NCBI GenBank assembly: GCA_965224525.1 | Contig: OZ245050.1 | Coordinates: forward strand, 410,021 to 474,020 | Direction: 5' to 3' | DNA length: 64,000 nt | DNA from: Granulosicoccus sp. | GTDB lineage: Bacteria > Pseudomonadota > Gammaproteobacteria > Granulosicoccales > Granulosicoccaceae | Shown: positions 2,825 through 18,773 of the stretch, piece after piece | Position numbering within the stretch: position 1 is the stretch's first letter | Layout: each line of letters begins with the position of its first letter | The notes under the pieces: model-generated | Told to the model about the DNA's origin: nothing | What the model saw: only the letters and a program-made list of their open reading frames with translations | Databases searched by the model: none | Made by a program: the position numbers and the translations under genes

Positions 2825-2829
2825 AGGTA

Positions 2830-4573: not shown

Positions 4574-7252
4574 ATGACAACCCGTAAATCAACCAAACTG
4601 ACACTGCACGACAAACTCTCTCGGCTGACATTTGTGCAGGCCTGCAAACTGCTGGGGCCCGATGGCGCCGGGTTTATCAGTCGCGGCGGGCGCTTCGACA
4701 TCGATATCGATCAACAGGTGACTCTGACCCGCCAGCAGTTCCGTCTTAACCTTGTTGGGCGCAAGCCATCGGTTGTCACCATTAAACTGGCAGACACCGC
4801 TACCCGGCGACTGGCCTGGCATTGCTCGACATCAAACGGTGCCTGCGATGAAGTGGGGGCTGCGTTGTCGCTGATTCTCGAAGAGAAAACTGCACTGGGG
4901 CTGGCAGCGGCACCGGATAGCCCGTTGCTACGTGCTGATCTCAGTGAGCTGGAGATCAACGCACTCGAAGTGACTGCGCGTGAAGAACGTGCAAAAAAAG
5001 AGCGCATGACGCTACGCTCAGCCAACCCCAAAACCCCCTGGACCGACTACCAGGTCACCAATAAAGCGTCGGGTAAAACCTATCGAGTGGCGTTGCGTGG
5101 GCATCATCCGGGTGAGTCGTATTGTTCCTGTCCCGACTATCGCAAAAATACCTTTGGCCTTTGCAAGCACACGATTCATGTATTGAACAAGGTGAAGCGC
5201 AAGTTCAGTGCCGCACAATTGCGACGCCCATTCAAACTCAAAGAGATTATCGTCTACCTGCAGTACGGTAAATCAGTGCAATTGCGCGCGGGTGTGCCCG
5301 ACAAGATTGATCGTGACGCTGAACGCTTGTTAAAACAGTACCGTAAGGGTTCCGTCAAGTCTATTCCAGCGCTGTTACGCGCCGTTGGAAAACTGGAGAA
5401 CGCGGGCCACACGGTCACTATTTATCCCGACGCCGAGCAGTACATCCAGCAGCGTTGCTGGCAGGCAAGAATCGAAAAACATGTAGCAGAGATTCGCAAG
5501 AAGCCAGCGAAACATCCATTGCGCAAGACGTTGTTGAAAGCCGAGTTGCTGCCGTATCAGCTCGATGGCATCGCGTTTGCGGCAGGAGCCGGCCGCGCCG
5601 TGCTTGCCGACGATATGGGTTTGGGTAAAACCATCCAGGGCATAGGTGTGGCGGCGCTGCTCAAGCGTGAAGCGAATATCTCGAGAGTTCTGATCGTTTG
5701 TCCCGCGTCACTCAAATCACAGTGGCGTGCAGAGATACACAAATTTTCTGATTTGGATTGCCAGCTGGTGGTGGGTAGTTCCGATAGCCGTGCCGCCCAG
5801 TATGACAACGACTGTTTTTTCACAGTGTGCAACTATGAGCAGGTGCTGCGGGACATATTGAGCATTGAGCAGGTACGTTGGGATCTCATCATTCTTGACG
5901 AAGGTCAGCGCATCAAGAACTGGGAAGCCAAGACCACACGCGTGATCAAGTCATTGAAGTCCCCTTTCGCCCTGGTGTTGTCGGGCACGCCACTGGAAAA
6001 TCGTATTGATGAGCTGTACAGCATTGTCGAGTTTATTGACGATCGCCGCCTCGGCCCCGACTTCCGATTTTATCAACGGCACCGCGTGCTGGATGACAAT
6101 GGCCGGGTTATCGGCTTTCAACACCTTAAGGAACTGCGCAAGAACCTCAAACCGGTGCTGCTGCGGCGCACGCGCGCCTCGGTGCTCGATCAGCTCCCGC
6201 CACGTACGACGGATATCGTTCGCATAGCGCCCACCGAAGAACAGCTCGAGTTACATGGTGCGCACATGAGAATCGTCAACAGCGTCATTGGTAAACCTTT
6301 TCTGAGCGAGATGGATTTGCTGCGTCTGCAAAAAGCCCTGTTGATGTGCCGCATGTCAGCTGACAGCACCTTCCTTTGCGACAAGGAGGCACCCGGTTAT
6401 TCCAGCAAGCTTGAAGCCATTGCGGATTTGTTCGATCGCATATTCAGCGATCCACACCACAAGGTTGTGTTGTTCTCCGAGTGGACGACCATGCTGAATC
6501 TGATTGAACCGCTACTGAAAAAACGCTCTATCGGTTTTGTGCGCCTGGATGGATCTGTGCCACAGAAAAAACGCCCGGCGCTGGTCAGTCAATTCGAGGA
6601 AGACAAGCAGTGTCGCTTGTTCATGGCTACCAATGCGGGTTCAACAGGGCTTAACCTGCAAATTGCCGACACCGTGATCAATGTGGACTTGCCATGGACA
6701 CCGGCGCTGCTGGAACAGCGCATTGGCCGCGTACACCGGATGGGGCAGAAGCGCCCCGTGCATGCATTTGTTCTGGTAACCGAAGACACTCTCGAAGAAA
6801 GCCTGTTGGCCACGCTGTCTGCCAAGCATGAGCTGGCACTGGCAGTACTTGATCCGGATTCGGATGTCGACTCCGTTGATCTGACCACCGGTATTGAGGC
6901 GCTGAAACAACGTCTCGAAGTGTTGCTCGGTGCACAGCCAGAAGCGGAGCGTGATGAGTCACAACGACGTGACGTCGACACCCAAACCAGAGCGCTGGCT
7001 GATCGACAACGCGTGTCGGAGGCTGGCGGACAGTTGCTGAGCGCGGCGTTTAACTTTCTCAGTGAAGTGATACCAGCACAGCCTGACACACCAGCATCGC
7101 AGGCACTGGCGACAGACCTGAAGCAGCGTTTTTCCGACTGTGTTGAACAGGGTGAAGATGGCAAACCGCAATTGACAATTTCGTTACCTGATAATGCGGC
7201 ACTGGATACCCTGGCTGAGTCGTTGGCGCAGTTGTTGGCTGCCCGGCAGTAG
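4574..7252 (+). CDS. SWIM zinc-finger plus SNF2-family (Swi2/Snf2) ATPase/helicase
   Basis: SWIM motif CSCPDYRKNTFGLCKHTIH. SNF2 ATPase motifs LADDMGLGKT, DEGQRIKN and a C-terminal HELICc region (LDGS...ATNAGSTGLNLQ...). Length 892 aa. Confidence 0.85.
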   Translation: MTTRKSTKLTLHDKLSRLTFVQACKLLGPDGAGFISRGGRFDIDIDQQVTLTRQQFRLNLVGRKPSVVTIKLADTATRRLAWHCSTSNGACDEVGAALSLILEEKTALGLAAAPDSPLLRADLSELEINALEVTAREERAKKERMTLRSANPKTPWTDYQVTNKASGKTYRVALRGHHPGESYCSCPDYRKNTFGLCKHTIHVLNKVKRKFSAAQLRRPFKLKEIIVYLQYGKSVQLRAGVPDKIDRDAERLLKQYRKGSVKSIPALLRAVGKLENAGHTVTIYPDAEQYIQQRCWQARIEKHVAEIRKKPAKHPLRKTLLKAELLPYQLDGIAFAAGAGRAVLADDMGLGKTIQGIGVAALLKREANISRVLIVCPASLKSQWRAEIHKFSDLDCQLVVGSSDSRAAQYDNDCFFTVCNYEQVLRDILSIEQVRWDLIILDEGQRIKNWEAKTTRVIKSLKSPFALVLSGTPLENRIDELYSIVEFIDDRRLGPDFRFYQRHRVLDDNGRVIGFQHLKELRKNLKPVLLRRTRASVLDQLPPRTTDIVRIAPTEEQLELHGAHMRIVNSVIGKPFLSEMDLLRLQKALLMCRMSADSTFLCDKEAPGYSSKLEAIADLFDRIFSDPHHKVVLFSEWTTMLNLIEPLLKKRSIGFVRLDGSVPQKKRPALVSQFEEDKQCRLFMATNAGSTGLNLQIADTVINVDLPWTPALLEQRIGRVHRMGQKRPVHAFVLVTEDTLEESLLATLSAKHELALAVLDPDSDVDSVDLTTGIEALKQRLEVLLGAQPEAERDESQRRDVDTQTRALADRQRVSEAGGQLLSAAFNFLSEVIPAQPDTPASQALATDLKQRFSDCVEQGEDGKPQLTISLPDNAALDTLAESLAQLLAARQ

Positions 7253-7697
7253 AACTGAATCCGGGAGACACGCTTTGCCGTACCCGGTACTTCCACTGAC
7301 ACGCGGTGTGTTTACTGCCGCCACCGGGAAGTTACTGATCGGATCAACAGGTGACTCGGCACCGGATACCTGGGGCCGGCGGTTAATGCAGCGAACAGAG
7401 CGACGCAACGCTGAACGGGAAGGGCGGATGAACGTACCTGTTCTCTGGATTTGCTGGAAGAGGCGGCCGGGTTGTTTGGTCTTGCACTGTCAGATGCGCG
7501 GGCAATCATCAAATCGGTTGCTATGGCGACTCGCCAGTGGCGAACGGCAACGGCATTTGAACACGATGACCTTGAGCGCGCCTTGCTTGTTGTCATAGTT
7601 AATACCAGCGGGCAGGGGTTGTCGGCAGCCAGGCGGAAGCGTTTTACTGAATCGCCCTGCAGCCGATAGTCTGCTTACCCCCAATGGATGTCCCTGC

Positions 7698-9392
7698 ATG
7701 GCAACCCTCATACCGCCCGTCAACATTGCCTCCATTGAGCCCTATAGTGAGCAACAGGTCATTGCTGCATTGATGGAGCAGCTACCGGCGGAATGTCGGC
7801 TGTATCACAACTTCGAGATTTTGACGCGTAGCGAAAAGACTGGCAAGAACAAGGGGACGGTCTTGCAGGAAGGGGAGATCGATGCTGTCGTGCTATGGCC
7901 AGGCAAGGGTTTGCTGGTACTGGAAGTGAAAGGCGGCGAAATTCGATACTGTGCTGAACAGTCCCGGTGGACAAGCAAAAACAGAAACGGTACTCACGAC
8001 ATCCAGGATCCGTTTCAGCAAGCTAAAAAAAACATGTACAGACTTATCAAGTCGATCGAGGGGGAGACCGGATCGAAGTTAAAAAATGCGTTGACACATG
8101 GTTTTGCAGTTATCTTCCCAAGCTCCCGAAGTGGGGGTCCGTTACCACACGGCGCTGATGCCGCAATCGTCTGTGATGCAAAGCGTCTGGAAAGCATCGG
8201 TCGTTTCGTTGATGGTGCGCTGAAACTCTGGCGCCGTGATTCAAACAAGCCGGCTCAGATGTCATTCGATTTCGAACAGGTACATCGTGCGATGTTGCCG
8301 GCTTTCAACCTGATGCCCTCGTTGAAGTCGCGCGTAGCCGGAGACAATGAACAGCTGTTGCGCTTGACTGAAGATCAGAGGAAGTATTTAAGCTTTGCCA
8401 GTAACATAAAAAGGGTGCGAATTAATGGCGTTGCAGGTTCTGGTAAAACACTGCTGGCGGTTGAGCAGGCGAGACGTTATAGCCGTGCCGGTCTGCGCAC
8501 CTTGTTGTTGTGTTACAACAAGTCACTGGCTGCCTGGATTCATGAGACGGTGGTTGTAGAGTCGGGTGATGCGCCGGTTGATGTGCATACCTTCCATGAC
8601 TTTTGCGCGCGTGCATGTAAAGAAGCTGTAATTACCTTCGACCCTTCAACTGGCGATGACTTCTGGACAGACCAGACGCCTGAGTTGTTGGCAGAGGCGA
8701 GTCACGCCATCCAGCCCTACGATGCTATTGTTGTTGACGAGGGGCAGGACTTTCGCGAAACCTGGTGGCTGGCGATTGAAGAGTGCCTGGTGAAAGACGG
8801 TCGATTGATGATTTTCTGCGATCCCCAGCAGGATATATTCGGTGCGGATGGGCTGGATGCAATTGATGTTGGTGATAGCATACTGGAGCTGCCTGAGAAC
8901 TGCCGGAATACTCAACACATTGCGCGTTTTTGCGATCATATCACTGCAGTCGAGACGTCTTCACCTGATAGTGCTCCGTCAGGCGTTCCGGTTAAATTAC
9001 AAGTAGAAGCATCGGATAACAAACGTCTGGCAAGAATCGAGGAGTTGCTGGATGGCTGGATCAAGCAGGAAGGTTTGTTGCCTTCACAAATTGCCATTTT
9101 GTCGCCATGGCGTCCGGAAAAAACCTGCCTGGCTGATGTTGAACAGGTCGGCCGTCATCAATTGACAAACAGCATTGAAGACTGGCGGAAAGGCAAGGGT
9201 GTTTTGCAAACAACAGTGCGATCATTCAAGGGTCTGGAAGCCGATGTGTTGCTACTGATTGATATCCCGAAACCCGATGCGCATAGAGCCTTCAGCACCG
9301 CAGATTATTATGTTGCCTGTTCACGGGCGAAGAGTGTTCTGCATGTGTTGGCCAAAGAGACGGCTGTCAAGAGTCTGGAAAAAGCTGCCTGA
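7698..9392 (+). CDS. NERD (nuclease-related domain) fused to a UvrD-like SF1 helicase/ATPase
   Basis: N-terminal EIDAVVLWPGKGLLVLEVKGG NERD signature. Walker A GVAGSGKT, Walker B VVDEGQD and a UvrD_C-like KGLEADVLLLID motif. Length 564 aa. Confidence 0.8.
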   Translation: MATLIPPVNIASIEPYSEQQVIAALMEQLPAECRLYHNFEILTRSEKTGKNKGTVLQEGEIDAVVLWPGKGLLVLEVKGGEIRYCAEQSRWTSKNRNGTHDIQDPFQQAKKNMYRLIKSIEGETGSKLKNALTHGFAVIFPSSRSGGPLPHGADAAIVCDAKRLESIGRFVDGALKLWRRDSNKPAQMSFDFEQVHRAMLPAFNLMPSLKSRVAGDNEQLLRLTEDQRKYLSFASNIKRVRINGVAGSGKTLLAVEQARRYSRAGLRTLLLCYNKSLAAWIHETVVVESGDAPVDVHTFHDFCARACKEAVITFDPSTGDDFWTDQTPELLAEASHAIQPYDAIVVDEGQDFRETWWLAIEECLVKDGRLMIFCDPQQDIFGADGLDAIDVGDSILELPENCRNTQHIARFCDHITAVETSSPDSAPSGVPVKLQVEASDNKRLARIEELLDGWIKQEGLLPSQIAILSPWRPEKTCLADVEQVGRHQLTNSIEDWRKGKGVLQTTVRSFKGLEADVLLLIDIPKPDAHRAFSTADYYVACSRAKSVLHVLAKETAVKSLEKAA

Positions 9393-9565
9393 TTTGCGTA
9401 TCTGCCAAACTTTCGGTACAGCAGCCTGGAAGCCATCTTCAAAAGGTACACCTCGGTTAGGACAGCACACTATCGAAGCAAATTCGGCATCCTCTTGCTG
9501 CGCAGTTCGTCTATCACTTGCGCAGAGAGCCTTATTGTTCCACTCTTGAATATATGAGGACGGAA

Positions 9566-10090
9566 TCAAAAATCGATCTCCACCGGTTCATTGATCACAA
9601 GCATCCATTTAGTGTCTTTTTCGTGCAGTCCCGTAACTAATTCAGTCAGTGGTTTGGCAGAAGGGTCCAGGAGTTTCATCGACTTGGCCTTTCTGGCAAA
9701 CGGTTCCAGTGCCTTGCCTTGACGTGTGTGACCAGTATGGTCCAGCAGATAACCAAGCCGGCGCACAGCTGTGTTCTCGTAGGCCATGGCCGCTTTCGTC
9801 AGTTTACCTGGATCGGCCTTTGCTCCAATATCCCGGGCAATCTGGGCTACACCATCAATGCCTGCAGCCTTGTGGAAATAACGGGTGCAATCCAGGAGGG
9901 TCAGCTCCACACCGGCCACCTTGGCGAAACCCGCCTCGCTTTTCATTTGCGAAAGCCCATCGGGCAGATTGATTTTGGCAAAGGTCGCCGGAGCCGGGTA
10001 AATGAACTGGAGCCGGTGACGGCCTAAAGTAAATGCCCGCAACTGCTTCGGGACAATTACTTGAAAGACCATAGTCGCCTGATCGGCCAC
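9566..10090 (-). CDS. Possible AbiEi-type (type IV TA antitoxin) C-terminal-domain protein. Orphan, with no adjacent AbiEii NTase.
   Basis: The ...RLGYLLDHTG... C-terminal motif is recalled from the AbiEi family. This identification is uncertain. Confidence 0.3.
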   Translation of the reverse strand: MADQATMVFQVIVPKQLRAFTLGRHRLQFIYPAPATFAKINLPDGLSQMKSEAGFAKVAGVELTLLDCTRYFHKAAGIDGVAQIARDIGAKADPGKLTKAAMAYENTAVRRLGYLLDHTGHTRQGKALEPFARKAKSMKLLDPSAKPLTELVTGLHEKDTKWMLVINEPVEIDF

Positions 10091-10176
10091 CCTGTCCTCT
10101 GGCCGCAGGATCAGATAGAAACCGCGACGGGGGGATACCAGACGCTGCTTGCTGGCTATAGTTTTTATGGGTATTA

Positions 10177-10479
10177 GTGGGTATATATGGGTATGAAGCT
10201 TACTACCTGGCTTTGCGCCAAACGCAGAGAACGATAGACAATCCCCGACCCGATTGGCAACCCTGGATTGTCTATTTTCTGCGCGCTCTTCAACAACAAA
10301 AACGCCGTCTGGAGAAAAAGATCGAGCGAGAGCGCATCACCATAGGCACCTTACCCGAGCTGTCGCTTCTGATTGTCGACGCTGTGAATGAGCGTGGCCG
10401 CATCGCCATGAGCGAGATAGTTTCCCTTACCGGTGCAAACCGCAACACGATCAAAAAGCACCTTGCATCATGCGCCTGA
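10177..10479 (+). pseudogene. C-terminal fragment of a Fic/DOC-family protein (winged-helix tail only)
   Basis: The 100-aa ORF resembles only the C-terminal wHTH region of Fic proteins (...RNTIKKHL...). There is no Fic core motif and no upstream partner. Confidence 0.35.
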
Positions 10480-10489
10480 TAAAAACCGC
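10466..10489. repeat. 24-bp direct repeat copy 1 (catcatgcgcctgataaaaaccgc), flanking the BrnTA cassette
   Basis: Identical apart from one extra A to 11100-11124. It contains ATGCGCCTGATAAAAACCGC, which is the start codon and first codons of the nuclease-helicase gene. Confidence 0.75.
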
Positions 10490-10498
10490 TTCGAAATT

Positions 10499-10732
10499 TC
10501 AGGGTTCTACATCCTGGCAGTCGGGATTGGCGTTCTTTTCCTGGTCATTTATCAGATTTCTCAGTGCTTCGTTAACCGATTCTTCCGTTGGGAAGGCGGC
10601 GGCAACATCCGGACTCAGTAAAACCAGGTTTTTGCTTTTCTGGTAAGCCGCGTAGTGTTTGCCACGAACACCATTGCTCAAATTTTTGTCGGAATAGTCT
10701 GGCCTCATATCATCGATGTCATTTGTCTTCAT
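10499..10732 (-). CDS. brnA: BrnA-type antitoxin
   Basis: A 77-aa protein immediately downstream of, and overlapping, brnT. The BrnTA gene order is toxin first. C-terminal RHH-like region. Confidence 0.7.
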   Translation of the reverse strand: MKTNDIDDMRPDYSDKNLSNGVRGKHYAAYQKSKNLVLLSPDVAAAFPTEESVNEALRNLINDQEKNANPDCQDVEP

Positions 10733-10991
10733 AAATATTTCTCTCGTGCTTGTTCATGTCTCTGGCGCTGATAATTCGAACTTCATTCTCGGAATCGGTA
10801 TGCGAGACTACTAAAAACCTTTGAAATCTCGAACAACCAAAAGTCAAATACCTGTACTCCAACCGAGAATGGTCCGGATCTGAAAATGTTACTGCCAGCG
10901 GATCATTAAAAACCGTAGTAGCTTCGTGGAATGTGACGCCGTGTTTCTTTTCGTTCGCGACGCCTTTATATTTGTCCCATGTAAACTCCAT
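10719..10991 (-). CDS. brnT: BrnT toxin (DUF497 RelE-fold ribonuclease)
   Basis: MEFTWDKYKGVANEKKHGVTFHEATTVFNDPLAV... matches the conserved BrnT N-terminus. Length 90 aa. Confidence 0.8.
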   Translation of the reverse strand: MEFTWDKYKGVANEKKHGVTFHEATTVFNDPLAVTFSDPDHSRLEYRYLTFGCSRFQRFLVVSHTDSENEVRIISARDMNKHERNIYEDK

Positions 10992-11099
10992 CCGAACATT
11001 CTAACAGTGGTGTCAAAAATCAACAAATCATGAATATTTCTGCGATATATCAAGCTTATGCATCTGAAAACGCCGTAGTTCGGTAGCCAATGGTCTTCA

Positions 11100-11124
11100 C
11101 ATCATGCGCCTGATAAAAAACCGC
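11100..11124. repeat. 25-bp direct repeat copy 2 (catcatgcgcctgataaaaaaccgc)
   Basis: Second copy of the repeat at 10466-10489. It overlaps the start codon of the 11104 gene. Confidence 0.75.
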
Positions 11125-11631
11125 CCGCACTACTCGCCAACCGATCTGGTTCGCTACCTTGGTAGCCCCTATGCCTCCTGGTATGACCGCTATGCCTTGC
11201 ACAAACCGGAACACGTGCAGTGCAAGGACCCGGAAGATGCCATGTCGAAGACGCTTGCGCATCGCGGTTATGCTCATGAGGAAGGGGTCACCGAGGCGCT
11301 AAAGGCAGATGGCATGACAGTTGCCAAACCCGAGAGTAAAAACAAGGAGCAACAACTGGCCGAAACCATCGCCTTGATGCATAGCGGTGTGGATGTGATC
11401 GAACAGGCGGTATTGAGCCTCGATAACATTACCGGTTATGCGGATTTTCTGGTGAAGGTGCCAGGGGCCAGTGATCTGGGTGACTGGCACTATGAGGTCT
11501 GGGATGCCAAGCTGGCGCGCAGTGTCAAACCATCGTTCGTGATTCAGCTGTGTTGTTATACCGAGATGGTGGTTGCCATTCAGGGGCGGCAACCTGAGTC
11601 GGTGCGTAGCGCTTGGCTCGAACGAGACTGA
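11104..11631 (+). CDS. N-terminal part of a RecB-like PD-(D/E)xK nuclease (TM0106-family type). It reads into the next ORF through a frameshift.
   Basis: GYADFLVKV...YEVWDAKLARSVKPSFVIQLCCY is the RecB-family nuclease motif III (D-x-K). The frame ends at TGA 11629-11631 while the homologous protein continues in the overlapping frame. Confidence 0.7.
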   Translation: MRLIKNRPHYSPTDLVRYLGSPYASWYDRYALHKPEHVQCKDPEDAMSKTLAHRGYAHEEGVTEALKADGMTVAKPESKNKEQQLAETIALMHSGVDVIEQAVLSLDNITGYADFLVKVPGASDLGDWHYEVWDAKLARSVKPSFVIQLCCYTEMVVAIQGRQPESVRSAWLERD

Positions 11632-14569
11632 GACAGTTCAGCTCAACACTTGCTACGCCTTCTACCTGCGGCTCAAGCAGCAGTTTATGCAGGCGCAACA
11701 GGCATGGTCGCCAGAGACACCGCCCGATCCTGCGTATTACAAGTATCACGGGCACTGGTCGAAGCAGGCCAGGTCGGAGCTGGCAGAGCGCGATCATCTG
11801 TGCTTTACAGCAACCATCACGCGGACCCAGATCAAGCACTTTCATGCGGCGGGTATTGACACCCTGCAACAGCTGAGTGAAACGGCTCTTGAGCATGTAC
11901 CAGGTGTATCCCCGGTGCTTCTCGATCGGCTGAAAGTGCAGGCTCGGTTGCAGCGCAGCAGTATCGGCAAGGCGCGCCCCGACTATCAACTGGTCGATCA
12001 TGACAAGGAACCGGCGACCGGCCTGCAGCTACTGCCACCGCACTCGGCTCAGGATGTGTTTTTCGATATGGAAGGCTTTCCGTTGATTGAGGACGGGCTG
12101 GAATACCTGTGGGGTTGTACGTATTTCACTGATAACGGTGAACGAACGTTTCTGGATTTCTGGGCGCACGATGCGGTCGCTGAAAAACGTGCCTTTGAGA
12201 ATATCATCGATTGGGTCTATGCCCGTTGGAAGGCTGACTCATCAATGCATATCTACCACTATGCAAGCTATGAAGTGTCAGCCTGTCGCCGTTTGATGGG
12301 CCGCTTTGGCACACGCGAGTATGAGCTTGACCAGTTGTTGCGTAACGAGGTGTTTGTTGATCTCTATCGTGTTGTGCGTCAAGGGCTGATCGTTGGGGAG
12401 CCGCGTTATTCGATCAAGAATATCGAGCTGCTCTACCGTGGCAAGCGTGAGACGGAAGTTAGTGGTGGCGGTGAATCCATCGTTGTGTATGAGAACTGGC
12501 GTGAAGCGTTTGCCGCAGGTGAGGAGGGTGGTTGCTGGCAAAGCTCCGAAACGCTAAAGCAGATTCGTGACTACAACATCGACGATTGCAACTCTACTCA
12601 GGAGCTGGTGGACTGGTTACGCGCCCGGCAGCTCGAAGCAAATATCCCCTATGTCGGCGGTGCTGCTGAGGTGATTGTGGCGGAACCGAAGGAAGAGCAG
12701 CTGGCCGTACAGATATTGCGTGATCGTTTAATGAAGAAATCCGACGCGTTGCTTGAAACTGATCCTGACGAGGCAGCGCTATGGCAAACACTGGGTGGTG
12801 TACTGGAATTTCACTGGCGCGAGGCCAAGCCCGGATTCTGGCGTTTGTTTGATCGCCTGGGTGCAGACCCCGCCGAGCTGGCAGATGATTCCGATTGTCT
12901 TGCGGATTGCGTACGCACAGAAGCTCCGCCTTTCAAGGACAAGCCATCCGCTCGTAATCTCACCTATGAATACCGCTTTGACGCGGGTCAGGAATTCCGT
13001 GGAGCTGGCAAGACATTTCAAATCGCCGGTTATGAAACAGAAGACGGCAAGAGCTTGAAAGTGGATCTGATAGCGGATAGCAGTGATCTGGAGAATGGTC
13101 TGGTCGCGCTGAAATGCCGGCAAGAACCGCCGGATTTTCTGTCATTGGTGTTGTCAGATTTCATTAACCCGGCGCCCATTCCAAAGGCTATCGCCGCGGT
13201 TGTGACTGACATTGAAGCAGGTAGTGGGAGTCACGGCGCGGTACTGTCATTGCTGCGACGCGATAAGCCGACATTTGATGAATCATTCATGCGGCAACTG
13301 GCACAACGCAGCGATGCGATTGCGCCCAGTAAATGCCCGACAGAAAAACTCCGGCAGATCACTGATGCGGTTAACTCATTGCAACAGAGTTGCCTCGTGA
13401 TTCAGGGGCCACCGGGCACTGGAAAAACCTATACAGCAAGTTGTGTTATCGGGAAGTTGTTGAAAGATGGCCATAAAGTGGGTGTGGCGAGCAACAGCCA
13501 TGCGGCGATAAACAACTTGTTACTGGCTACAGCGGGCTACTGTTCGGAAGTCAGTGTGGACGCTGCCATTACCTGTACCAAATATACCGAGGAGGGGATG
13601 GAGGAGGCCGGTGTGATGCAATGTGCCAATGCAGTGTTGGCAAATAATGTGCAACCCGGCAGTCTGGTAGGCACAACGGCCTGGGGTTTTTCTCGAGACG
13701 ACATGGCAAACACGCTGGACTACCTGTTTGTTGACGAAGCCGGGCAAGTGGCATTGGCGAACGTCATCGGTATGAGCCGTGCTGCTGATAACCTGGTTTT
13801 ACTGGGTGATCAAATGCAGTTGGGACAACCGACACAGGGAACCCATCCGGGCAAAAGCGGATCATCGGTGCTGGAATATATGATGGGTGAGCAAGCGACA
13901 ATAGCGGAAGACGAAGGGGTCTTTCTTGGTGCCGGCTTTCGCATGCACTCTGCCGTTAACCAATTTATCAGCAAGCAATTTTACGATGGTCGTTTGCAGT
14001 CACGCCCCGATAATGACGAACGGCGATTACTGTTGGATGCTGCACTCCATTCGGAGCTGTCAGATACCGGTGCGGGTGTGTTCTTTATACCGGTGACACA
14101 TGACGGCAATACGCAAAGTTCTGTAGAGGAGGCGCAACTTATCGCAGAACTGGTTAGCGGTTTGTTACGTGGTGAGCTGCGGGTTAAAGATGGATGCCCG
14201 CGCCCGCTGGTTATGGATGACATATTATTTGTCGCTCCCTACAACCAGCAGGTCAGAGTACTCAAAGACACACTGGGGCCGGACGCCAGAGTTGGCAGTG
14301 TAGACAAGTTTCAGGGTCAGGAAGCAGCGGTTGTGTTTTTAAGCCTGTGTGCCAGTGATGCCAGCGAGTCACCGCGCGGCCTTGGCTTTCTGCTCGACCG
14401 TCACCGAATCAATGTCGCTGTATCACGCGCACAATCAATGGTGATTATTGTCGGGCATCCGGAACTGGTCAGCGGGCCGGTTGATACGATGGCAGCGCTA
14501 GCGCAGGCGAATTTGTTTGCAGCGTTGGTGGAACAATCGTACCGACAGGGTGAAATTTCCATCGTATGA
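11573..14569 (+). CDS. Continuation of the same gene: rest of the TM0106-type nuclease region followed by an Upf1-like SF1 helicase (AAA_11/AAA_12). The intact protein would be about 1150 aa.
   Basis: Helicase motifs LVIQGPPGTGKTYT, YLFVDEAGQ, VDKFQGQEAAVV and INVAVSRAQ were read directly. The nuclease domain's motif III (ORF1) and the remainder of the nuclease region (ORF2) lie in different frames that overlap at 11573-11631. Confidence 0.75.
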   Translation: MPFRGGNLSRCVALGSNETETVQLNTCYAFYLRLKQQFMQAQQAWSPETPPDPAYYKYHGHWSKQARSELAERDHLCFTATITRTQIKHFHAAGIDTLQQLSETALEHVPGVSPVLLDRLKVQARLQRSSIGKARPDYQLVDHDKEPATGLQLLPPHSAQDVFFDMEGFPLIEDGLEYLWGCTYFTDNGERTFLDFWAHDAVAEKRAFENIIDWVYARWKADSSMHIYHYASYEVSACRRLMGRFGTREYELDQLLRNEVFVDLYRVVRQGLIVGEPRYSIKNIELLYRGKRETEVSGGGESIVVYENWREAFAAGEEGGCWQSSETLKQIRDYNIDDCNSTQELVDWLRARQLEANIPYVGGAAEVIVAEPKEEQLAVQILRDRLMKKSDALLETDPDEAALWQTLGGVLEFHWREAKPGFWRLFDRLGADPAELADDSDCLADCVRTEAPPFKDKPSARNLTYEYRFDAGQEFRGAGKTFQIAGYETEDGKSLKVDLIADSSDLENGLVALKCRQEPPDFLSLVLSDFINPAPIPKAIAAVVTDIEAGSGSHGAVLSLLRRDKPTFDESFMRQLAQRSDAIAPSKCPTEKLRQITDAVNSLQQSCLVIQGPPGTGKTYTASCVIGKLLKDGHKVGVASNSHAAINNLLLATAGYCSEVSVDAAITCTKYTEEGMEEAGVMQCANAVLANNVQPGSLVGTTAWGFSRDDMANTLDYLFVDEAGQVALANVIGMSRAADNLVLLGDQMQLGQPTQGTHPGKSGSSVLEYMMGEQATIAEDEGVFLGAGFRMHSAVNQFISKQFYDGRLQSRPDNDERRLLLDAALHSELSDTGAGVFFIPVTHDGNTQSSVEEAQLIAELVSGLLRGELRVKDGCPRPLVMDDILFVAPYNQQVRVLKDTLGPDARVGSVDKFQGQEAAVVFLSLCASDASESPRGLGFLLDRHRINVAVSRAQSMVIIVGHPELVSGPVDTMAALAQANLFAALVEQSYRQGEISIV

Positions 14570-14682
14570 CGCAAGATAGAAATCACGCCAGATTAGTCCA
14601 ATGTTATGATTGCCTGTATCAGGCAACTCCTTTACAGATACTTTCTCGTTGACGAAGCAGTATTGCCGGAACTGGATCCTGG

Positions 14683-15231
14683 ATGGATAACGAACAGATC
14701 AGTGTTCTGCTCAAAGTAACGCGAGTGCTGGATGAGTGCGGTATCGCTTACATGGTCAGTGGATCGACCGCCCTGAATTTCTACGCTAGACCTCGCATGA
14801 CACGGGATATCGACCTGGTGATCGAATTGCGAGAGACCGGTGTGTTGGCTCTGGTGGGGGCTCTGGTGGGTGAATTCTATGTTGACGAAGACTCGGTGGC
14901 TGGAGCTGTTAGCAACCAGTCTATGTTCAACGCCATTCACAACGACACGCTGGTCAAGGTTGATTTCATCGTCCGTAAGGATGAGCCCTACCGGAAAACC
15001 GAATTCGAACGCCGGCGATCAGTAATGCTGGGTACGGCGCAGATCATGGCGGTAGCACCTGAAGATCTGATACTGTCAAAACTGCTGTGGAGCGCAGACA
15101 CACTTTCGACAATGCAGACCGACGATATTCGCAACCTGTTGAGCTCGGCCGAATTGGATCAACGCTATCTCGATCACTGGGCGCAGGCATTGGGCGTATC
15201 AGAACGTCTCCTGGAAATTCACCAAACATGA
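14683..15231 (+). CDS. Minimal nucleotidyltransferase (MNT/pol-beta fold) protein
   Basis: SGSTALNFYARPRMTRDIDLVIE fits the hG[GS]x9-13Dh[DE]h NTase signature. Length 182 aa. Confidence 0.6.
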   Translation: MDNEQISVLLKVTRVLDECGIAYMVSGSTALNFYARPRMTRDIDLVIELRETGVLALVGALVGEFYVDEDSVAGAVSNQSMFNAIHNDTLVKVDFIVRKDEPYRKTEFERRRSVMLGTAQIMAVAPEDLILSKLLWSADTLSTMQTDDIRNLLSSAELDQRYLDHWAQALGVSERLLEIHQT

Positions 15232-15485
15232 ACGACACGCACCCGGATATCGAAGCTCAATGGCACACTCGATTGATGGCTCGCTCCGGTGCCGAGCGCT
15301 TGATAATGGGTGCCGGAATGTTCAGCACCAGTCTGATTTTGATGCGTGCCGGAATAACGGCCACCTACGGGGACTTAAGTGAAGTCGACATGCGCGAAAA
15401 GTTACTGCATCGTCTTTACGGGGATGAGATTTCACCAGAGGCACGGCAGCAAATTGCAGCGCACTGCAGCCCCTCGCGTTCTTAA
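15228..15485 (+). CDS. Small 85-aa protein translationally coupled (ATGA overlap) to the NTase. It carries an Rx4H motif (REKLLHRLY) and is a possible HEPN-like partner.
   Basis: The ATG at 15228 overlaps the NTase stop at 15229-15231. The MntA-HepT-like gene order and coupling support the pairing. The protein is short for a HEPN domain. Confidence 0.35.
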   Translation: MNDTHPDIEAQWHTRLMARSGAERLIMGAGMFSTSLILMRAGITATYGDLSEVDMREKLLHRLYGDEISPEARQQIAAHCSPSRS

Positions 15486-15499
15486 GCAGGCAGTTGAAT

Positions 15500-15600
15500 T
15501 TCGGGCGAGTCTGGATCGGCTCAACCCGGGTCAAAGCGGTGCATCGGTGCTGGATTATCTGATGGGTGAGCATGCAACGATTGCCCAGGACAAAAGACAG
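15500..15600 (+). pseudogene. Decayed fragment homologous to the SF1-helicase gene (compare 13841-13920)
   Basis: NPGQSGASVLDYLMGEHATIAQD matches HPGKSGSSVLEYMMGEQATIAED of the 11573 gene at both amino-acid and nucleotide level (about 80% nt identity over about 65 nt). The flanking frame is broken. Confidence 0.5.
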
Positions 15601-15805
15601 CGTTGGTGGAGTAGCTGTATTGCCAGCTTATTCCAGACCATAAGCACGAATGCCGGAGCCTGTACAGCAGACAGTTTGTTCATCAGACTGCTGCCTGGTA
15701 CCCTGTCGTCCGTCACCACGACAAGCCACACAGCAATCACATCCATTCCCCGTGACAGACTGGACGCCACATGAAGTGCATGAAACAGTCTCTGCCTACT
15801 TGCAG

Positions 15806-16585
15806 ATGCTGACGCTTGAATTGTCCGGGCAGAGCTACAACAAAGCCGCAATAAATCGAGAGCTGATCGAAAAGCTGGATGATCGATCGAAAGCTGCTAT
15901 TGAGTTCAAACACGGCAATATCAGCGCGGCTTTGGTAGAGCTCGGCTTCCCGGTCGTTCAGGGGTATAAGCCCAGACGAAACTTTCAGCGGCGCGCACTT
16001 TTCGAGAGCCTTATCAAACAGATTAGTGAACGACACCTGCTTGATGACGCTGCTGTCAAGGCAGTAGAGCTACCGGCGACTGCTCCGGTTATTTCTGAAT
16101 TTGACAAGGTCATAACCCCTGCTCCTCGCCCGGAAGCATCAAACACAGGTGACTACAAACCGCCGTATTTGGCAAAGCGTGATTACATGGCGATAGAGGC
16201 GAGAAATCGCAGTCTTGGCCTTGCAGGTGAAAAGTTTATATTGGCCTATGAAATCTGGCGACTGAGACAACACGGTGTAAACAAGCTGGCTGACAAGGTT
16301 GAACACATTTCCGTGACACGCGGTGATGGTGCGGGTTATGACATTCTATCGTTCGAGGATAGCGGCAGGCCGCGCTACATTGAAGTAAAGACCACAGCGT
16401 ATTCAGAAAGAACGCCGTTCTGGATCAGTGCGAATGAATTGCGATTTGCCGATAACAACGATGTCGAATTTCGATTGGCGCGTGTTTTCGACTTCAGGAA
16501 ATCGCCGAAGTTTTTCACTCTGGCCGGGCCCGTAGGGCGTCACTGCGAGTTGGACCCGACAACCTTTCGAGCGTCGATACGGTAG
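15806..16585 (+). CDS. DUF3883-domain protein (predicted restriction-endonuclease-like fold). The start is uncertain; the open frame begins at 15650.
   Basis: The C-terminal ...GDGAGYDILSFEDSGRPRYIEVKTT...FWISANELRFADNNDVEFRLARVFDF region is characteristic of DUF3883. Confidence 0.55.
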   Translation: MLTLELSGQSYNKAAINRELIEKLDDRSKAAIEFKHGNISAALVELGFPVVQGYKPRRNFQRRALFESLIKQISERHLLDDAAVKAVELPATAPVISEFDKVITPAPRPEASNTGDYKPPYLAKRDYMAIEARNRSLGLAGEKFILAYEIWRLRQHGVNKLADKVEHISVTRGDGAGYDILSFEDSGRPRYIEVKTTAYSERTPFWISANELRFADNNDVEFRLARVFDFRKSPKFFTLAGPVGRHCELDPTTFRASIR

Positions 16586-16610
16586 GAATGGCAGTTCTTC
16601 GATCAATATC

Positions 16611-16646
16611 TGCTGCGTACGCATCATTATGCTATGATGCGCTGCA
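16611..16646. promoter_or_regulatory. Palindromes (tgcgtacgca; gcatcat-tatgct-atgatgc) at the start of the second Xre-like antitoxin gene. Putative operator.
   Basis: Both palindromes were read directly. They overlap the antitoxin start codon at 16634. Confidence 0.4.
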
Positions 16647-17023
16647 TAAGCAGCATACAGGTCCCGTCGATGAACCAACCCCACCCAAAACCCGATGTAC
16701 ACGCCGTTCTGGCTGAAGCTACCCTCGCAGCGGCTGAATCTCTGGGCATGAGCCAGGCAGAACTCGGCAAGGTCATTGGCCGCGACCGCTCGCGCATCAG
16801 GCAAGGCATTCGTACCGATAGCAAATCTGGCGAACTGGCACTGTTGCTGATCCGCTGTTATCGCGGATTGTATGCGCTAGTGGATGGTGATGCTGACATT
16901 ATGCGTCACTGGATGGCGACCAATAATCGTGGCACCGGGGGTATTCCTGCCGAACAGATTCAGAGTGTTCAGGGTTTGACATCAGTGCTTGGTTATCTGG
17001 ATGCCATTCGTGGAAAAGTCTGA
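16634..17023 (+). CDS. Xre-like (DUF2384-type) antitoxin, paralogue of 2453-2824
   Basis: The same HTH plus C-terminal ...GGIPAEQIQSVQGLTSVL... motif as the first copy. It lies upstream of a RES gene. Confidence 0.75.
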   Translation: MMRCISSIQVPSMNQPHPKPDVHAVLAEATLAAAESLGMSQAELGKVIGRDRSRIRQGIRTDSKSGELALLLIRCYRGLYALVDGDADIMRHWMATNNRGTGGIPAEQIQSVQGLTSVLGYLDAIRGKV

Positions 17024-17774
17024 CAGTGCGATCTGGCAAGCTATAGAAAAGAAAGTCTCACCAGGCCTGATTGGTGGAACTCTACATCGGCTGGTAGAAA
17101 GTCAGGAGCAGGTTGCAACCGCCCGCCTGGTCGATGGCGATCTCGACAAACAGGCATTGCTTGAGGAACTGCTGGAGCCTTCCAAGCCACCGCGTGTTAA
17201 AGGCACAGAGCATCTCGATTATTTGCTAGCAACTCCGTGGCGTTATCCACCATTAAAGTATGGTTCACGGTTTGGTCAACGTTATGAAACCAGCCTGTTT
17301 TATGGTGGGTTGAGCGAGCAAACAACGCTGGCTGAAGGTGGCTTCTACCGATGGGTGTTCCTGTTGGATATGGACGAGTCGCCGAGCAAATTGCGTTCGC
17401 AGCATACAATGTATAACGCTCAATACCGAACTGAAAAAGGCTTGCGACTCAACAGCCCGCCGTTTGTTGAATTTGACTCAGAGTTGACTCACAAGTCACG
17501 CTATCAGGACAGTCAGGCACTGGGTTCTGCAATGCGAACTGCTGGCATAGAGGCTTTTGAATATGCGTCAGCCAGAGATCCCGCAGGTGGTAGTAATGTA
17601 GCCCTGATAGAACCAGTGGCCTTGATATCAACCAGTGCGAAAAAACAGAGAGCCTGGTTATGTACAACCAGCCAGCAAGAGGTTCTATTCAGTTATCGCG
17701 GGTCGCCTTCAGTCGTTAAACGTTTTCATATTGATGATTTCATGCTTGACGGGCGGCTACCGCGGCCAGCGTAG
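17001..17774 (+). CDS. RES-domain toxin, paralogue of 1707-2456 (the start probably lies within the overlap with the antitoxin)
   Basis: ...WRYPPLKYGSRFG...FYGG... is collinear with the first RES protein. The ORF track start is TTG at 16989; ATG at 17001 or GTG at 17010 are more plausible. Confidence 0.8.
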   Translation: MPFVEKSDSAIWQAIEKKVSPGLIGGTLHRLVESQEQVATARLVDGDLDKQALLEELLEPSKPPRVKGTEHLDYLLATPWRYPPLKYGSRFGQRYETSLFYGGLSEQTTLAEGGFYRWVFLLDMDESPSKLRSQHTMYNAQYRTEKGLRLNSPPFVEFDSELTHKSRYQDSQALGSAMRTAGIEAFEYASARDPAGGSNVALIEPVALISTSAKKQRAWLCTTSQQEVLFSYRGSPSVVKRFHIDDFMLDGRLPRPA

Positions 17775-17950
17775 TGTTTGGTCGGGGGGAGGATAATGAA
17801 CTGATATCGGTTCTCGAGTTCTGCCAGTGTGAACGGCGGTTTCTCAGGAATATAACTATAGATCGCCTCTGCCTGGAACAAATCGAAAAGCTCCGCAGCA
17901 TGCGTGACCTTCAACGTTTCCAGATTCACGTTGTTAACTGACATATTCAA
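17726..17950 (-). pseudogene. N-terminal fragment (74 aa) of a GNAT-family N-acetyltransferase
   Basis: The sequence resembles the N-terminus of RimJ/RimL-like GNATs and then stops abruptly. Confidence 0.3.
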
Positions 17951-18117
17951 TTACCCCGATACCTTCAAGTACCCTTTCACAACCAGACTCGGCAGCTCGT
18001 CGAATTCCAGGCCATTTCTGGATCCCGTGTGCATCGAAAGACGGCTCACATAAGATATTTTGATATGTGCTGTCACGTGATATATACTATGATATATATT
18101 ATGGAGTGAGAAGTTCA

Positions 18118-18363
18118 ATGCCCAGCACTGCAAAACTCTTTATGAACGGACGAAGCCAGGCTGTCCGCTTGCCTCGGGATTTTCGGTTTGACTGCGAAGA
18201 AGTGTATATCCGCAAGGATCCGGTGACCGGCGATGTCATCATTTCAAAAAAACCGCACACATGGGATTCATTCTTCAAATTGCTGGATGAGGCCGATGTG
18301 CCAGACGACTTCCTTCTTGATCGAGACAATTCGCCACCACAGGACAGAGACCCGTTGTCATGA
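18118..18363 (+). CDS. vapB: VapB antitoxin (AbrB/SpoVT/MazE-type swapped-hairpin)
   Basis: MPSTAKLFMNGRSQAVRLPRDFRF... GGAG lies 11 nt upstream of the ATG. The stop overlaps the vapC start (ATGA). Confidence 0.7.
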   Translation: MPSTAKLFMNGRSQAVRLPRDFRFDCEEVYIRKDPVTGDVIISKKPHTWDSFFKLLDEADVPDDFLLDRDNSPPQDRDPLS

Positions 18364-18773
18364 CCGATAGGCAGGTCATGCTTGATACGAACACGGTCAG
18401 TTATTTGCTCCGGGAAAACGATTCAAAAATCAAAGAGCGGCTGGTAAAGACAGGCATGGCAAATGTGTGCGTATCGGTAGTTACCGAGGCTGAACTCCGT
18501 TTCGGTTGTTTACAGCGTCCTGCTGCAACTAACCTCACCGCTCTGGTTACTGAATTCATATCGGCTGTTGATAGTTTGCCCTGGAACTCGGAGTCTGCCA
18601 AATCCTATGCGGAGCTCAGAATGCATTGCAAGAAAAAAGGGCTCGCGCTTGGTTGTATGGACATGTTGATTGCCGCGCACTCTATGGCTGTGGATGCCCG
18701 GTTAATAAGCAGCGACAAGGCTTTTAGTCATTTATCTGACTTGCTGACTCTTGACAGTTGGTATGACGGTTAA
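18360..18773 (+). CDS. vapC: PIN-domain toxin VapC
   Basis: MTDRQVMLDTNTVSYLL... gives the PIN N-terminal motif, and the 137-aa length fits. Two direct TGATATATA repeats upstream (18078-18102) are probably the operator. Confidence 0.85.
   Translation: MTDRQVMLDTNTVSYLLRENDSKIKERLVKTGMANVCVSVVTEAELRFGCLQRPAATNLTALVTEFISAVDSLPWNSESAKSYAELRMHCKKKGLALGCMDMLIAAHSMAVDARLISSDKAFSHLSDLLTLDSWYDG

What the first reader, a model, noticed from the sequence alone, without database searches (positions are those of the whole stretch)
11104..14569. About 1150-aa RecB-like nuclease / Upf1-like SF1 helicase fusion interrupted by a single frameshift
The 11104-11631 ORF carries the RecB-family D-x-K nuclease motif III and stops at 11631. 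The overlapping ORF from 11573 continues the rest of the TM0106-type nuclease region and a complete AAA_11/AAA_12 helicase (all Walker and SF1 motifs present). The architecture, a PD-(D/E)xK nuclease plus an SF1 helicase, is that of nuclease-helicase immunity proteins. The gene is either a recent pseudogene in a decaying island, a sequencing error, or is expressed by programmed frameshifting.
Basis: seen in the sequence. Interest (0 to 1): 0.6.

Follow-up and report, generated by a model that had tools for sequence, protein, structure and literature searches.

The report
Frameshifted Dna2-like nuclease-helicase pseudogene
A large bacterial gene for a combined DNA-cutting and DNA-unwinding enzyme, sitting in a cluster of defence and toxin-antitoxin genes, has been broken in two by a 2-base deletion; it is an ordinary, probably recent pseudogene of a widespread but never-tested gene family.

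Summary
ORF 11104-11631 and ORF 11573-14569 are two frames of one ~1155-codon gene. TIGR03491 is split cleanly between them (profile 22-148 and 172-462). With one codon restored it matches in a single stretch at 231 bits.

More than 450 species-level genomes and 71 plasmids carry the gene as one ~1140-aa ORF. 79 of the 80 loci fetched from those genomes have it intact.

A closer relative (L165, 83% nt identity) reads GTG CGC GTG where the window reads GTG C GTA. The lesion is therefore a 2-bp deletion between 11604 and 11605, in a short CG repeat and not in a homopolymer. It falls inside a beta-strand of the nuclease domain, not at a domain boundary.

All nuclease, exonuclease and helicase motifs are intact, there is no other stop, and dN/dS against the relative is 0.13. 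The break is therefore recent. Other NCBI assembly records carry the identical frameshift. There is no slippery site, no stimulatory RNA structure and no frameshifted relative, so programmed frameshifting is not supported.

The protein is Dna2-like: a Cas4/Dna2-type PD-(D/E)xK nuclease, an RNase-H-like exonuclease and an Upf1-like SF1B helicase. It does not match the Nhi or Mokosh profiles. A defence role is inferred from its neighbours only. Interest is low.

The parts
11104..11604 (+). First 167 codons of the gene: core of a Cas4/Dna2-type PD-(D/E)xK nuclease domain. Motif II D114 is at 11443-11445, E131/D134-x-K136 at 11494-11511 and QLCCY at 11545-11559.
11602..11608 (+). Lesion site. The window reads GTG C GTA where the closest relative reads GTG CGC GTG (V-R-V). 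This is a 2-bp deletion between 11604 and 11605, in a short CG/GC repeat and not in a homopolymer.
   Evidence: Pairwise alignment with L165. Protein alignment: homologues read 'PExIxVALG', the window reads 'PESV' + lone C + 'VALG'. tblastn frame junction at 11603-11613.
11605..11631 (+). Out-of-frame tail of ORF1 (RSAWLERD), ending at TGA 11629-11631.
   Evidence: Translations. No homology to the family beyond residue 167.
11606..12055 (+). Frame-2 continuation: the last two strands and a helix of the nuclease domain (VALGSNE...LKQQF), followed by a helical linker. The annotated restart ATG is at 11687.
   Evidence: TIGR03491 profile 172 onward. In the model of homologue P0002 the break lies in strand E166-170, followed by E176-180 and H182-200, all at pLDDT >90. 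The 960-aa and 255-aa products annotated in public records start at 11687.
12056..12619 (+). RNase-H-like (PolB-exo/DnaQ-type) predicted 3'-5' exonuclease domain. The acidic residues invariant in the family are retained (DVFFDMEG, YNIDD).
   Evidence: Pfam PF13482 RNase_H_2, E 6.4e-21, ORF2 residues 162-349. Invariant columns in A2. Classified as COG2251 / family F.13 in PMC3985635.
13361..14473 (+). Upf1/Dna2-like SF1B helicase core (AAA_11/AAA_12). Walker A GPPGTGKT is at 13406-13429. DEAGQ, GDQMQL, VDKFQGQE and NVAVSRA are all intact.
   Evidence: Pfam AAA_12 107.8 bits and AAA_11 56.3 bits. PDB sequence hits Upf1, IGHMBP2, Sen1, DNA2. Foldseek top hit is Dna2 5EAN, E 5e-25.
14567..14569 (+). 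Stop codon of the gene.
   Evidence: the ORF listing.
15526..15594 (+). 69-nt relic of a second copy of the same helicase, 80% identical to 13847-13915. It encodes PGQSGASVLDYLMGEHATIAQD.
   Evidence: the repeat finder family D1. tblastn HSPs with three homologues, E 0.02-0.1.

Best explanation
This is a genuine, evolutionarily recent pseudogene. One ~1155-codon gene was inactivated by a 2-bp deletion, probably slippage in a short CG repeat, between window positions 11604 and 11605. The intact gene encodes a stand-alone three-module enzyme. The modules are an N-terminal Cas4/Dna2-type PD-(D/E)xK nuclease, an RNase-H-like 3'-5' exonuclease (together these form COG2251/TIGR03491, the 'TM0106 family'), and a C-terminal Upf1/Dna2-like SF1B helicase preceded by a beta-barrel. 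By analogy with Dna2, the intact enzyme would load on a free single-stranded end, translocate 5'->3' using ATP, and degrade the strand with its nucleases (inferred). Its distribution suggests an accessory gene that most likely acts against foreign DNA: it lies in chromosomal islands next to many different defence systems and on plasmids, and is essentially absent from phages (inferred from neighbours, not tested). In this genome, labelled Granulosicoccus sp. in NCBI records, the deletion falls inside a beta-strand of the nuclease domain. ORF1 therefore yields a nuclease core that lacks its last strands and helix, with eight junk residues at the end. The rest of the gene is left without a proper start. 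The gene lies in an island that also holds other broken defence genes.
For: Shown:
- The split is one gene in two frames, and restoring one codon gives a single TIGR03491 match.
- The family is a single ORF elsewhere: the top 120 database hits are 1119-1182 aa and cover 97-99% of the fused query. 79 of 80 genome loci have an intact ~1143-aa ORF.
- The exact lesion is seen against L165, the closest relative at 83% nt identity: GTGCGCGTG in L165 against GTGCGTA in the window.
- The break is not at a domain boundary.
- The break is recent. There is no other stop or frameshift in 3.4 kb, every catalytic motif is kept, and dN/dS against L165 is 0.126, with 0.17 upstream and 0.12 downstream of the break and dS 0.66.
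- The frameshift is probably real. The identical 175-aa ORF1 and downstream fragment are in NCBI records GCA_036478565.1 and GCA_044240345.1, whose k=141-style contigs are 100% identical to the window, and in a 4.93-Mb contig. The site is not a homopolymer.
- The island is decaying: AbiEi lacks its N-terminus, only a C-terminal fragment of SoFic remains, and there is a 69-nt relic of a second helicase copy.
- Context: no conserved partner gene. Neighbours include McrBC (8 loci), type I R-M, BrxL, HerA, SngC, GajB, AbiEii, SoFic and MkoA. The family is on 71 plasmids, in 0 of 50,697 phage genomes and in 1 of 2.9 million viral contigs. Another copy is cut by an IS5 element (H2).
Against: - No reads were available, so an assembly error is not formally excluded.
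- The public records that share the frameshift are 100% identical to the window over 23.6 kb. They may derive from the same sample or the same reads, so their independence is unproven.
- L165, which defines the ancestral state, is a 4x-coverage long-read contig with about nine 1-nt indels of its own. Those are mostly in or beside short base runs, whereas the 2-nt difference is not, and all distant homologues agree on one extra codon at the site.
- Low dN/dS on both sides of the break is also what continued selection on a functional two-piece gene would give.
- The window/L165 lineage is divergent, at 51-56% identity to all others, and differs at 74 of 435 columns that are invariant in 15 other homologues. 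Its function could therefore differ from that of the rest of the family.
- No member of the family has been tested experimentally.
Confidence: 0.75

Rival explanations
1. Assembly or sequencing artefact: the real genome has an intact 1155-codon gene and two bases were lost during assembly or polishing.
For: No read data could be inspected. Every public copy that carries the frameshift is 100% identical to the window, so all of them might come from one data set. The short-read contigs break inside this gene with a 141-nt overlap at 12311-12451, which hints at graph complexity or strain variation here. Apart from the frameshift the gene looks perfectly functional.
Against: The same sequence appears in a fragmented k-mer-type assembly and in a contiguous 4.93-Mb contig, which are different assemblies. 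The lesion is a 2-nt loss in GTGCG(CG)T, not a homopolymer-length error. Short-read assemblies rarely produce 2-nt deletions in such a context (general knowledge). Other genes in the same island are also broken.
Confidence: 0.12
2. Functional split gene: after the deletion the two pieces are still made, ORF1 as a small nuclease subunit and ORF2 from ATG 11687 or TTG 11573 as an exonuclease-helicase, and they work together or separately.
For: ORF1 keeps all four PD-(D/E)xK motifs and folds confidently on its own in silico, with pLDDT 90. dN/dS is low on both sides of the break. Public annotations call both pieces as genes.
Against: The break is inside a beta-strand of the N-domain. About 27 conserved residues (VALG...LKQQF, including invariant L171, G172, Y188, L191, K192, F195) would be missing from both products if ORF2 starts at ATG 11687. 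No Shine-Dalgarno-like sequence precedes either candidate start (read by eye), and no promoter-like site lies nearby. No natural two-gene form was found. Among the short database entries sampled, some carry junk tails or end abruptly. The one whose contig could be retrieved lies on a 2x-coverage contig with the gene shattered into four ORFs. The low dN/dS mostly reflects the time before the deletion.
Confidence: 0.08
3. Programmed +1 ribosomal frameshifting (or transcriptional slippage) produces the full-length protein.
For: A single +1 shift anywhere in 11543-11631 would join the two frames. The gene is otherwise intact.
Against: There is no slippery or hungry-codon motif at the homology junction (TCG GTG C GTA), and the next zero-frame codon is CGT. 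There is no prfB-like CUU UGA, and no A or T run that could support transcriptional slippage. The downstream RNA is no more structured than shuffled controls, z -0.49. The closest relative and all 79 intact homologues encode the junction in frame with one extra codon, so the frameshift is not conserved. A shift at the ORF1 stop would replace the conserved VALG segment with junk.
Confidence: 0.02

Closest known systems
COG2251 / TIGR03491 'TM0106 family RecB-like putative nuclease' fused to tandem AAA (helicase) domains (family F.13 of the RNase-H-like superfamily survey, PMC3985635)
   Same: Same family. The repaired N-terminus matches TIGR03491 end to end at 231 bits. [quoted passage not shown] NCBI names intact homologues exactly this way.
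   Different: This copy is frameshifted. With L165 it forms a divergent branch, 51-56% identical to the other members against at least 61% among them. The family has no experimentally known function.
Eukaryotic Dna2 nuclease-helicase (PDB 5EAN/5EAW/5EAX)
   Different: Only 12-17% identity. This family has an additional RNase-H-like exonuclease domain. The four-cysteine Fe-S cluster of the Dna2/Cas4/AddB nuclease domains is not evident: the only invariant Cys residues in the N-domain are the adjacent C150 and C151. It is a bacterial accessory gene, not a core replication factor.
Nhi (nuclease-helicase immunity, Staphylococcus) and related single-protein nuclease-helicase defences
   Same: The general idea: one polypeptide that combines a nuclease with an SF1 helicase, located in defence islands.
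   Different: The PADLOC Nhi profile (PDLC02372) does not match the window's two ORFs. It touches only the Walker-A region of one intact homologue, at E 3e-4. The size and domain set differ: the PADLOC Nhi profile is 470 positions long, against ~1150 aa with an extra exonuclease here.
Mokosh MkoA/MkoC helicases
   Same: These are the best PADLOC hits (MkoA 1.1e-44). The similarity reflects a shared Upf1-like helicase core.
   Different: The match covers only the C-terminal half of the helicase (profile 771-1095 of 1112). No PLD-nuclease (MkoB-type) gene or domain was found in or next to the window gene. The N-terminal modules are unrelated.

Membership tests
TIGR03491 / COG2251 (TM0106 RecB-like nuclease with RNase_H_2 domain) | Full-length match to the NCBIfam model above its curated cut-off (97.45 bits) | tested here: met
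   As found: 59.3 bits for ORF1 (profile 22-148) plus 154.7 bits for ORF2 (172-462). Repaired: 231.3 bits in one stretch, 22-462/462.
TIGR03491 / COG2251 (TM0106 RecB-like nuclease with RNase_H_2 domain) | PD-(D/E)xK catalytic motifs (D ... (D/E)xK ... QxxxY) and a PF13482 exonuclease domain with conserved acidic residues | tested here: met
   D114, E131, D134, K136, Q148 and Y152 are invariant and present. PF13482 E 6.4e-21. D318, D322, E324, D420 and D494/D495 are invariant and present.
Upf1/Dna2-like SF1B helicases (Pfam AAA_11 + AAA_12) | Both Pfam domains above gathering score, with intact Walker A, Walker B and motifs III, V, VI | tested here: met
   AAA_12 107.8 bits and AAA_11 56.3 bits, cut-offs 27. 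GPPGTGKT, DEAGQ, GDQMQL, VDKFQGQE and NVAVSRA are invariant columns kept in the window. Best PDB hits are Upf1, IGHMBP2, Sen1 and DNA2.
Upf1/Dna2-like SF1B helicases (Pfam AAA_11 + AAA_12) | 5'->3' translocation on single-stranded nucleic acid | not testable with these tools
   Requires biochemistry. Inferred only from family membership.
Dna2 | N-terminal PD-(D/E)xK nuclease followed by an SF1B helicase in one chain, with fold similarity to solved Dna2 | tested here: met
Dna2 | Four-cysteine Fe-S cluster spanning the nuclease domain | tested here: not met
   The only invariant cysteines in the first ~215 residues are the adjacent C150 and C151, within QLCCY. No C...CxxCx5C pattern is present.
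Dna2 | Sequence-level orthology | tested here: not met
   12-17% identity in structural alignments. The sequence hit is limited to the helicase. The RNase_H_2 domain present here is not part of Dna2 as I recall its architecture (not tested).
Nhi | Match to the PADLOC Nhi profile | tested here: not met
   No hit for either window ORF at E<=0.01. Homologue P0093 hits only at the Walker-A region, E 3e-4, with no significant stretch.
Mokosh (MkoA+MkoB or MkoC) | Full-length match to MkoA/MkoC and presence of a PLD nuclease partner or domain | tested here: not met
   The match is restricted to profile 771-1095 of 1112. No PLD domain in the gene or in the adjacent genes scanned.
Programmed ribosomal frameshift genes | Slippery or hungry-codon site, stimulatory element, and conservation of the frameshift in relatives | tested here: not met
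   No such motif in 11543-11631. Downstream fold z -0.49. Relatives are in frame.
Anti-phage / anti-plasmid defence genes (functional class) | Recurrent location next to known defence systems | tested here: inconclusive
   Neighbours include McrBC, type I R-M, BrxL, HerA, SngC, GajB, AbiEii, SoFic and MkoA. The window island holds RES-Xre, PIN, BrnT, a NERD-helicase, an SNF2 helicase and PDC-S36. However, many neighbours are housekeeping genes, and no background rate was computed.
Anti-phage / anti-plasmid defence genes (functional class) | Protection in a challenge assay | not testable with these tools
   No experimental report found.

The most novel reading that the evidence does not exclude
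The intact family (COG2251 nuclease-exonuclease fused to an Upf1-like helicase) would be an unnamed single-gene defence system against phages or plasmids. It would work like a bacterial Dna2 with an added proofreading-type exonuclease, shredding invading DNA from a single-stranded end. It is found in more than 450 species-level genomes and 71 plasmids, and none of the named-system profiles in PADLOC 2023 matches it beyond the generic helicase core. The window copy, the IS5-cut plasmid copy and the 69-nt relic would then show the rapid gain and loss typical of such systems. A less likely variant is that the split allele still works as a two-piece enzyme.
Probability: 0.35. Interest if true: 0.45.

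Novelty: new member of a known kind. Interest (0 to 1): 0.2.

Why it matters
For this locus the value is mainly correct annotation. The two ORFs, which public records call 'hypothetical protein', 'TM0106 family ... partial' and 'AAA domain-containing protein', should be one pseudogene carrying a defined 2-bp deletion. The locus is one more example of defence-island decay.

The wider point is that the parent family is large, mobile, associated with defence islands and plasmids, built like Dna2, and experimentally untouched. It would be a reasonable candidate for a defence-system screen, but an intact homologue should be used, for example the Legionella, Acinetobacter, Vibrio tubiashii plasmid or Piscirickettsia plasmid copies, rather than this broken one.

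Tried and rejected
- Near-identical DNA in E. coli genomes and in plasmids: no match.
- Exact-pattern scan of JGI metagenome contigs for either allele across the break: no match.
- Protein-seeded scan of the same collection: nothing closer than about 56% identity.
- Look-up of the annotated 960-aa ORF2 product to identify the 4.93-Mb source record: not on record.
- Natural two-gene forms. Many 160-400-aa database entries match ORF1. Among those sampled, some carry junk tails or end abruptly. The one whose contig could be retrieved lies on a 2x-coverage contig with the gene shattered into four ORFs. Two other look-ups found nothing. Rejected.
- A conserved partner gene: none. The largest neighbour cluster occurs in 8 of 80 loci, and 134 immediate neighbours span 150 Pfam families.
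- CoCoNuT CnuH identity, considered because McrBC is a recurrent neighbour and CnuH is Upf1-like. The paper mentions no Cas4, RNase H or exonuclease module. Rejected.
- Nhi and Mokosh membership: rejected.
- Programmed frameshift: rejected.
- Literature on TM0106, COG2251, PF13482, and RecB-like plus Upf1-like: only the 2012/2014 bioinformatic classifications.
- The RNase-H-like region of the full-length model was poorly predicted (pLDDT 30-50), so it gave no structural confirmation beyond the Pfam hit.


Full report
**1. The observation**

The region holds two overlapping + strand ORFs, 11104-11631 (175 aa) and 11573-14569 (998 aa), one base out of frame. Frame 2 is open from 11543. The NCBIfam model TIGR03491 (TM0106 family RecB-like putative nuclease) is divided between them with contiguous profile coordinates: 22-148 in ORF1 and 172-462 in ORF2. 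ORF2 also carries RNase_H_2 (PF13482), AAA_11 and AAA_12 above Pfam thresholds.

tblastn with three intact homologues gives one HSP in frame +1 (11128-11613) and one in frame +2 (from 11603), abutting at homologue residue 168-170. When one codon is restored, the first 520 residues match TIGR03491 in a single stretch (22-462 of 462) at 231 bits, against a cut-off of 97.

**2. The family is naturally one gene**

A hand-fused 1155-aa query finds more than 4000 relatives. The best 120 are 1119-1182 aa, 51-56% identical, and cover 97-99% of the query. The one exception is the window's own fragment (P0001, 100% identical).

A scan of one genome per species finds 457 loci. Of the 80 fetched, 79 have an uninterrupted ORF of about 1143 aa.

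Many short database proteins resemble ORF1. Among those sampled, some carry junk tails or end abruptly. The one whose contig could be retrieved sits on a 2x-coverage contig with the gene shattered into four ORFs. These are not natural two-gene forms.

**3. The exact lesion**

Distant homologues read ...IQGRxPExIxVALGNG.... The window reads IQGRQPESV (GTG at 11602-11604), then a lone C (11605), then VALGSNE (GTA at 11606).

An exhaustive profile-free search found a closer relative (P0124, 77% identical). Its contig L165 aligns to window 11075-14239 at 83% nucleotide identity. At the break L165 reads GAG TCG GTG CGC GTG GCG CTT GGC (E S V R V A L G), where the window reads GAG TCG GTG C GTA GCG CTT GGC.

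The window therefore lost two bases from a short GCGCG repeat, between 11604 and 11605. L165 is a 4x-coverage long-read contig with about nine 1-nt insertions of its own. Those lie mostly in or beside short base runs, unlike this 2-nt difference, and every distant homologue supports one extra codon here.

**4. Real or artefact; old or recent**

The identical 175-aa ORF1 and downstream fragments exist in NCBI records GCA_036478565.1 (a MAG named Granulosicoccus sp.) and GCA_044240345.1. They are also on a 4.93-Mb contig. The fragmented contigs are 100% identical to window 1104-12451 and 12311-24569, and they overlap by 141 nt inside the gene. The frameshift therefore survives in at least two different assemblies and is not in a homopolymer, which makes an error unlikely. 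The records may share a sample, however, and I could not see reads.

Apart from the deletion the gene is pristine. It has no other stop, and all invariant nuclease, exonuclease and helicase residues are retained. Against L165, dN/dS is 0.126 (dS 0.66, 84% amino-acid identity). It is 0.17 upstream and 0.12 downstream of the break, against 1.6 for an out-of-frame control. The two other indels of more than one base are multiples of three. Almost all divergence therefore happened under purifying selection, so the deletion is recent.

The window/L165 lineage is a divergent branch of the family. It is 51-56% identical to the others, which are at least 61% identical among themselves. It differs at 74 of 435 columns that are invariant in the others. 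Given the low dN/dS, I attribute this to divergence rather than decay.

**5. Consequence of the break**

In the AlphaFold model of an intact homologue, the N-domain (residues 1-215) is confident, with pLDDT about 90. The break falls in strand 166-170, which is followed by another strand and a helix of the same domain. ORF1 therefore lacks part of its fold and ends in eight junk residues. The annotated restart at ATG 11687 would leave about 27 conserved residues out of both products.

I saw no Shine-Dalgarno-like sequence before either candidate start (by eye) and no promoter-like site. There is no slippery site, and the RNA downstream folds no better than shuffled sequence, z -0.49. No relative shares the frameshift. 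Programmed frameshifting is therefore not supported, and a functional split is unlikely.

**6. What the intact protein is**

The middle holds a PF13482 RNase-H-like domain, predicted to be a 3'-5' exonuclease. The C-terminus is an Upf1-like SF1B helicase. For the whole model the best solved structure is mouse Dna2 (5EAN, E 5e-25), followed by IGHMBP2, Upf1 and Sen1.

[quoted passage not shown] I found no experimental work on the family.

By analogy with Dna2, the enzyme should thread a single-stranded end, move 5'->3' and degrade it. That mechanism is inference.

**7. Biological role**

The gene has no conserved partner. The largest neighbour cluster is in 8 of 80 loci, and 134 immediate neighbours fall into 150 Pfam families.

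Recurrent or individual neighbours include McrBC, type I R-M, WYL regulators, transposases, BrxL, HerA, SngC, GajB, AbiEii, SoFic and MkoA. The family is on 71 plasmids, with one copy cut by an IS5 element. It is in none of 50,697 phage genomes and in one of 2.9 million viral contigs.

In the window it lies among two RES-Xre modules, two PIN genes, BrnT, an SNF2 helicase (ZorD/DpdE-like), a NERD-helicase, an AbiEii-like nucleotidyltransferase and a PDC-S36/NOV_C protein. A role in defence against foreign DNA is plausible but untested.

The family does not belong to any of three systems considered:
- Nhi: the profile does not match.
- Mokosh: only the helicase half matches, and no PLD was seen in or next to the gene.
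- CoCoNuT CnuH: excluded.

**8. The island is decaying**

Directly upstream lie an AbiEi gene missing its first ~98 residues and a C-terminal fragment of a SoFic gene. Downstream lies a 69-nt relic of a second helicase copy, 80% identical to 13847-13915.

In L165 the NERD-helicase gene directly abuts the nuclease-helicase gene. The 1.64-kb block at window 9437-11074 (the AbiEi fragment, the SoFic fragment and BrnTA) is absent there. In the window it is bounded by imperfect ~20-nt direct repeats.

**9. Verdict**

The most likely account is a real, recent 2-bp-deletion pseudogene of a known but uncharacterised Dna2-like nuclease-exonuclease-helicase family, in a decaying defence/toxin-antitoxin island (confidence about 0.75).

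The rivals are:
- assembly error, 0.12;
- functional split gene, 0.08;
- programmed frameshift, 0.02.

This is a new, broken member of a known kind and of low interest in itself. The parent family is a reasonable candidate for experimental defence screens.

Noticed in passing
window 15526-15594 (compare 13847-13915): A 69-nt stretch, 80% identical to part of the helicase gene, encodes PGQSGASVLDYLMGEHATIAQD. It looks like the last remnant of a second, diverged copy of the same gene, about 1 kb downstream of the first.
   Followed up: partly
window 9566-10090 (-) and 10177-10479 (+): An AbiEi antitoxin gene lacks its N-terminal ~98 residues (PADLOC profile 99-259 of 259) and has no AbiEii next to it. 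Beside it is a 100-aa C-terminal fragment of a SoFic-type Fic protein (profile 234-329 of 361). Both are broken genes just upstream of the frameshifted gene.
   Followed up: partly
window 9437-11074, junctions near 9413-9440 and 11073-11095; L165 4960-4995: In the closest relative (L165) the NERD-helicase gene is followed directly by the nuclease-helicase gene. The 1.64-kb block between them in the window (AbiEi fragment, SoFic fragment, BrnT/BrnA) is absent there. In the window the block is flanked by imperfect ~20-nt direct repeats that match a single-copy site in L165. This is either an insertion or a repeat-mediated deletion.
   Followed up: partly
window 12311-12451: The public short-read contigs of the same organism end and begin inside the gene with a 141-nt overlap (k=141 style), although no repeat is present there. 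This hints at strain-level variation in the assembly graph at this gene.
   Followed up: no
window 7698-9392 (+) and 4574-7252 (+): The 564-aa NERD + UvrD-like helicase matches the PADLOC model 'RTasNERD-Hel' (associated with defence reverse transcriptases) over its full length, E 1.8e-55. I did not look for a reverse transcriptase nearby. The gene upstream is an 892-aa SNF2 helicase resembling ZorD/DpdE/DrmD.
   Followed up: no
window 15650-16585 (+): A 311-aa NOV_C/DUF3883-type protein matches the PADLOC candidate system PDC-S36 over its full length, E 2.5e-101.
   Followed up: no
window 1707-2824 (-), 16634-17774 (+); 3257-3739, 18360-18773; 3804-4460, 23533-23895: The island holds two RES-Xre toxin-antitoxin modules, two PIN-domain genes and two Uma2-family genes on either side of the nuclease-helicase. 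No long DNA repeats link the pairs, so they are diverged paralogues or independent acquisitions.
   Followed up: partly
window 14683-15485 (+): A 182-aa AbiEii/DUF2204-like nucleotidyltransferase is followed by an overlapping 85-aa ORF with no family match. This may be a small toxin-antitoxin pair directly downstream of the pseudogene.
   Followed up: no
homologue loci L024, L041, L043 and five others (about 0.6 and 2.7 kb downstream of the gene): In 8 of 80 homologue loci a McrB-like (AAA_5, ~800 aa) gene and a McrC gene follow the nuclease-helicase. This could be a lineage-specific operon linking the family to type IV restriction.
   Followed up: partly
plasmid NZ_CP014001.1 (Picosynechococcus sp. 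PCC 73109), 25845-30205: Another member of the family is interrupted by an IS5 transposase, giving the same pair of annotations ('TM0106 family ...' and 'AAA domain-containing protein'). This is an independent inactivation of the gene in another lineage.
   Followed up: no
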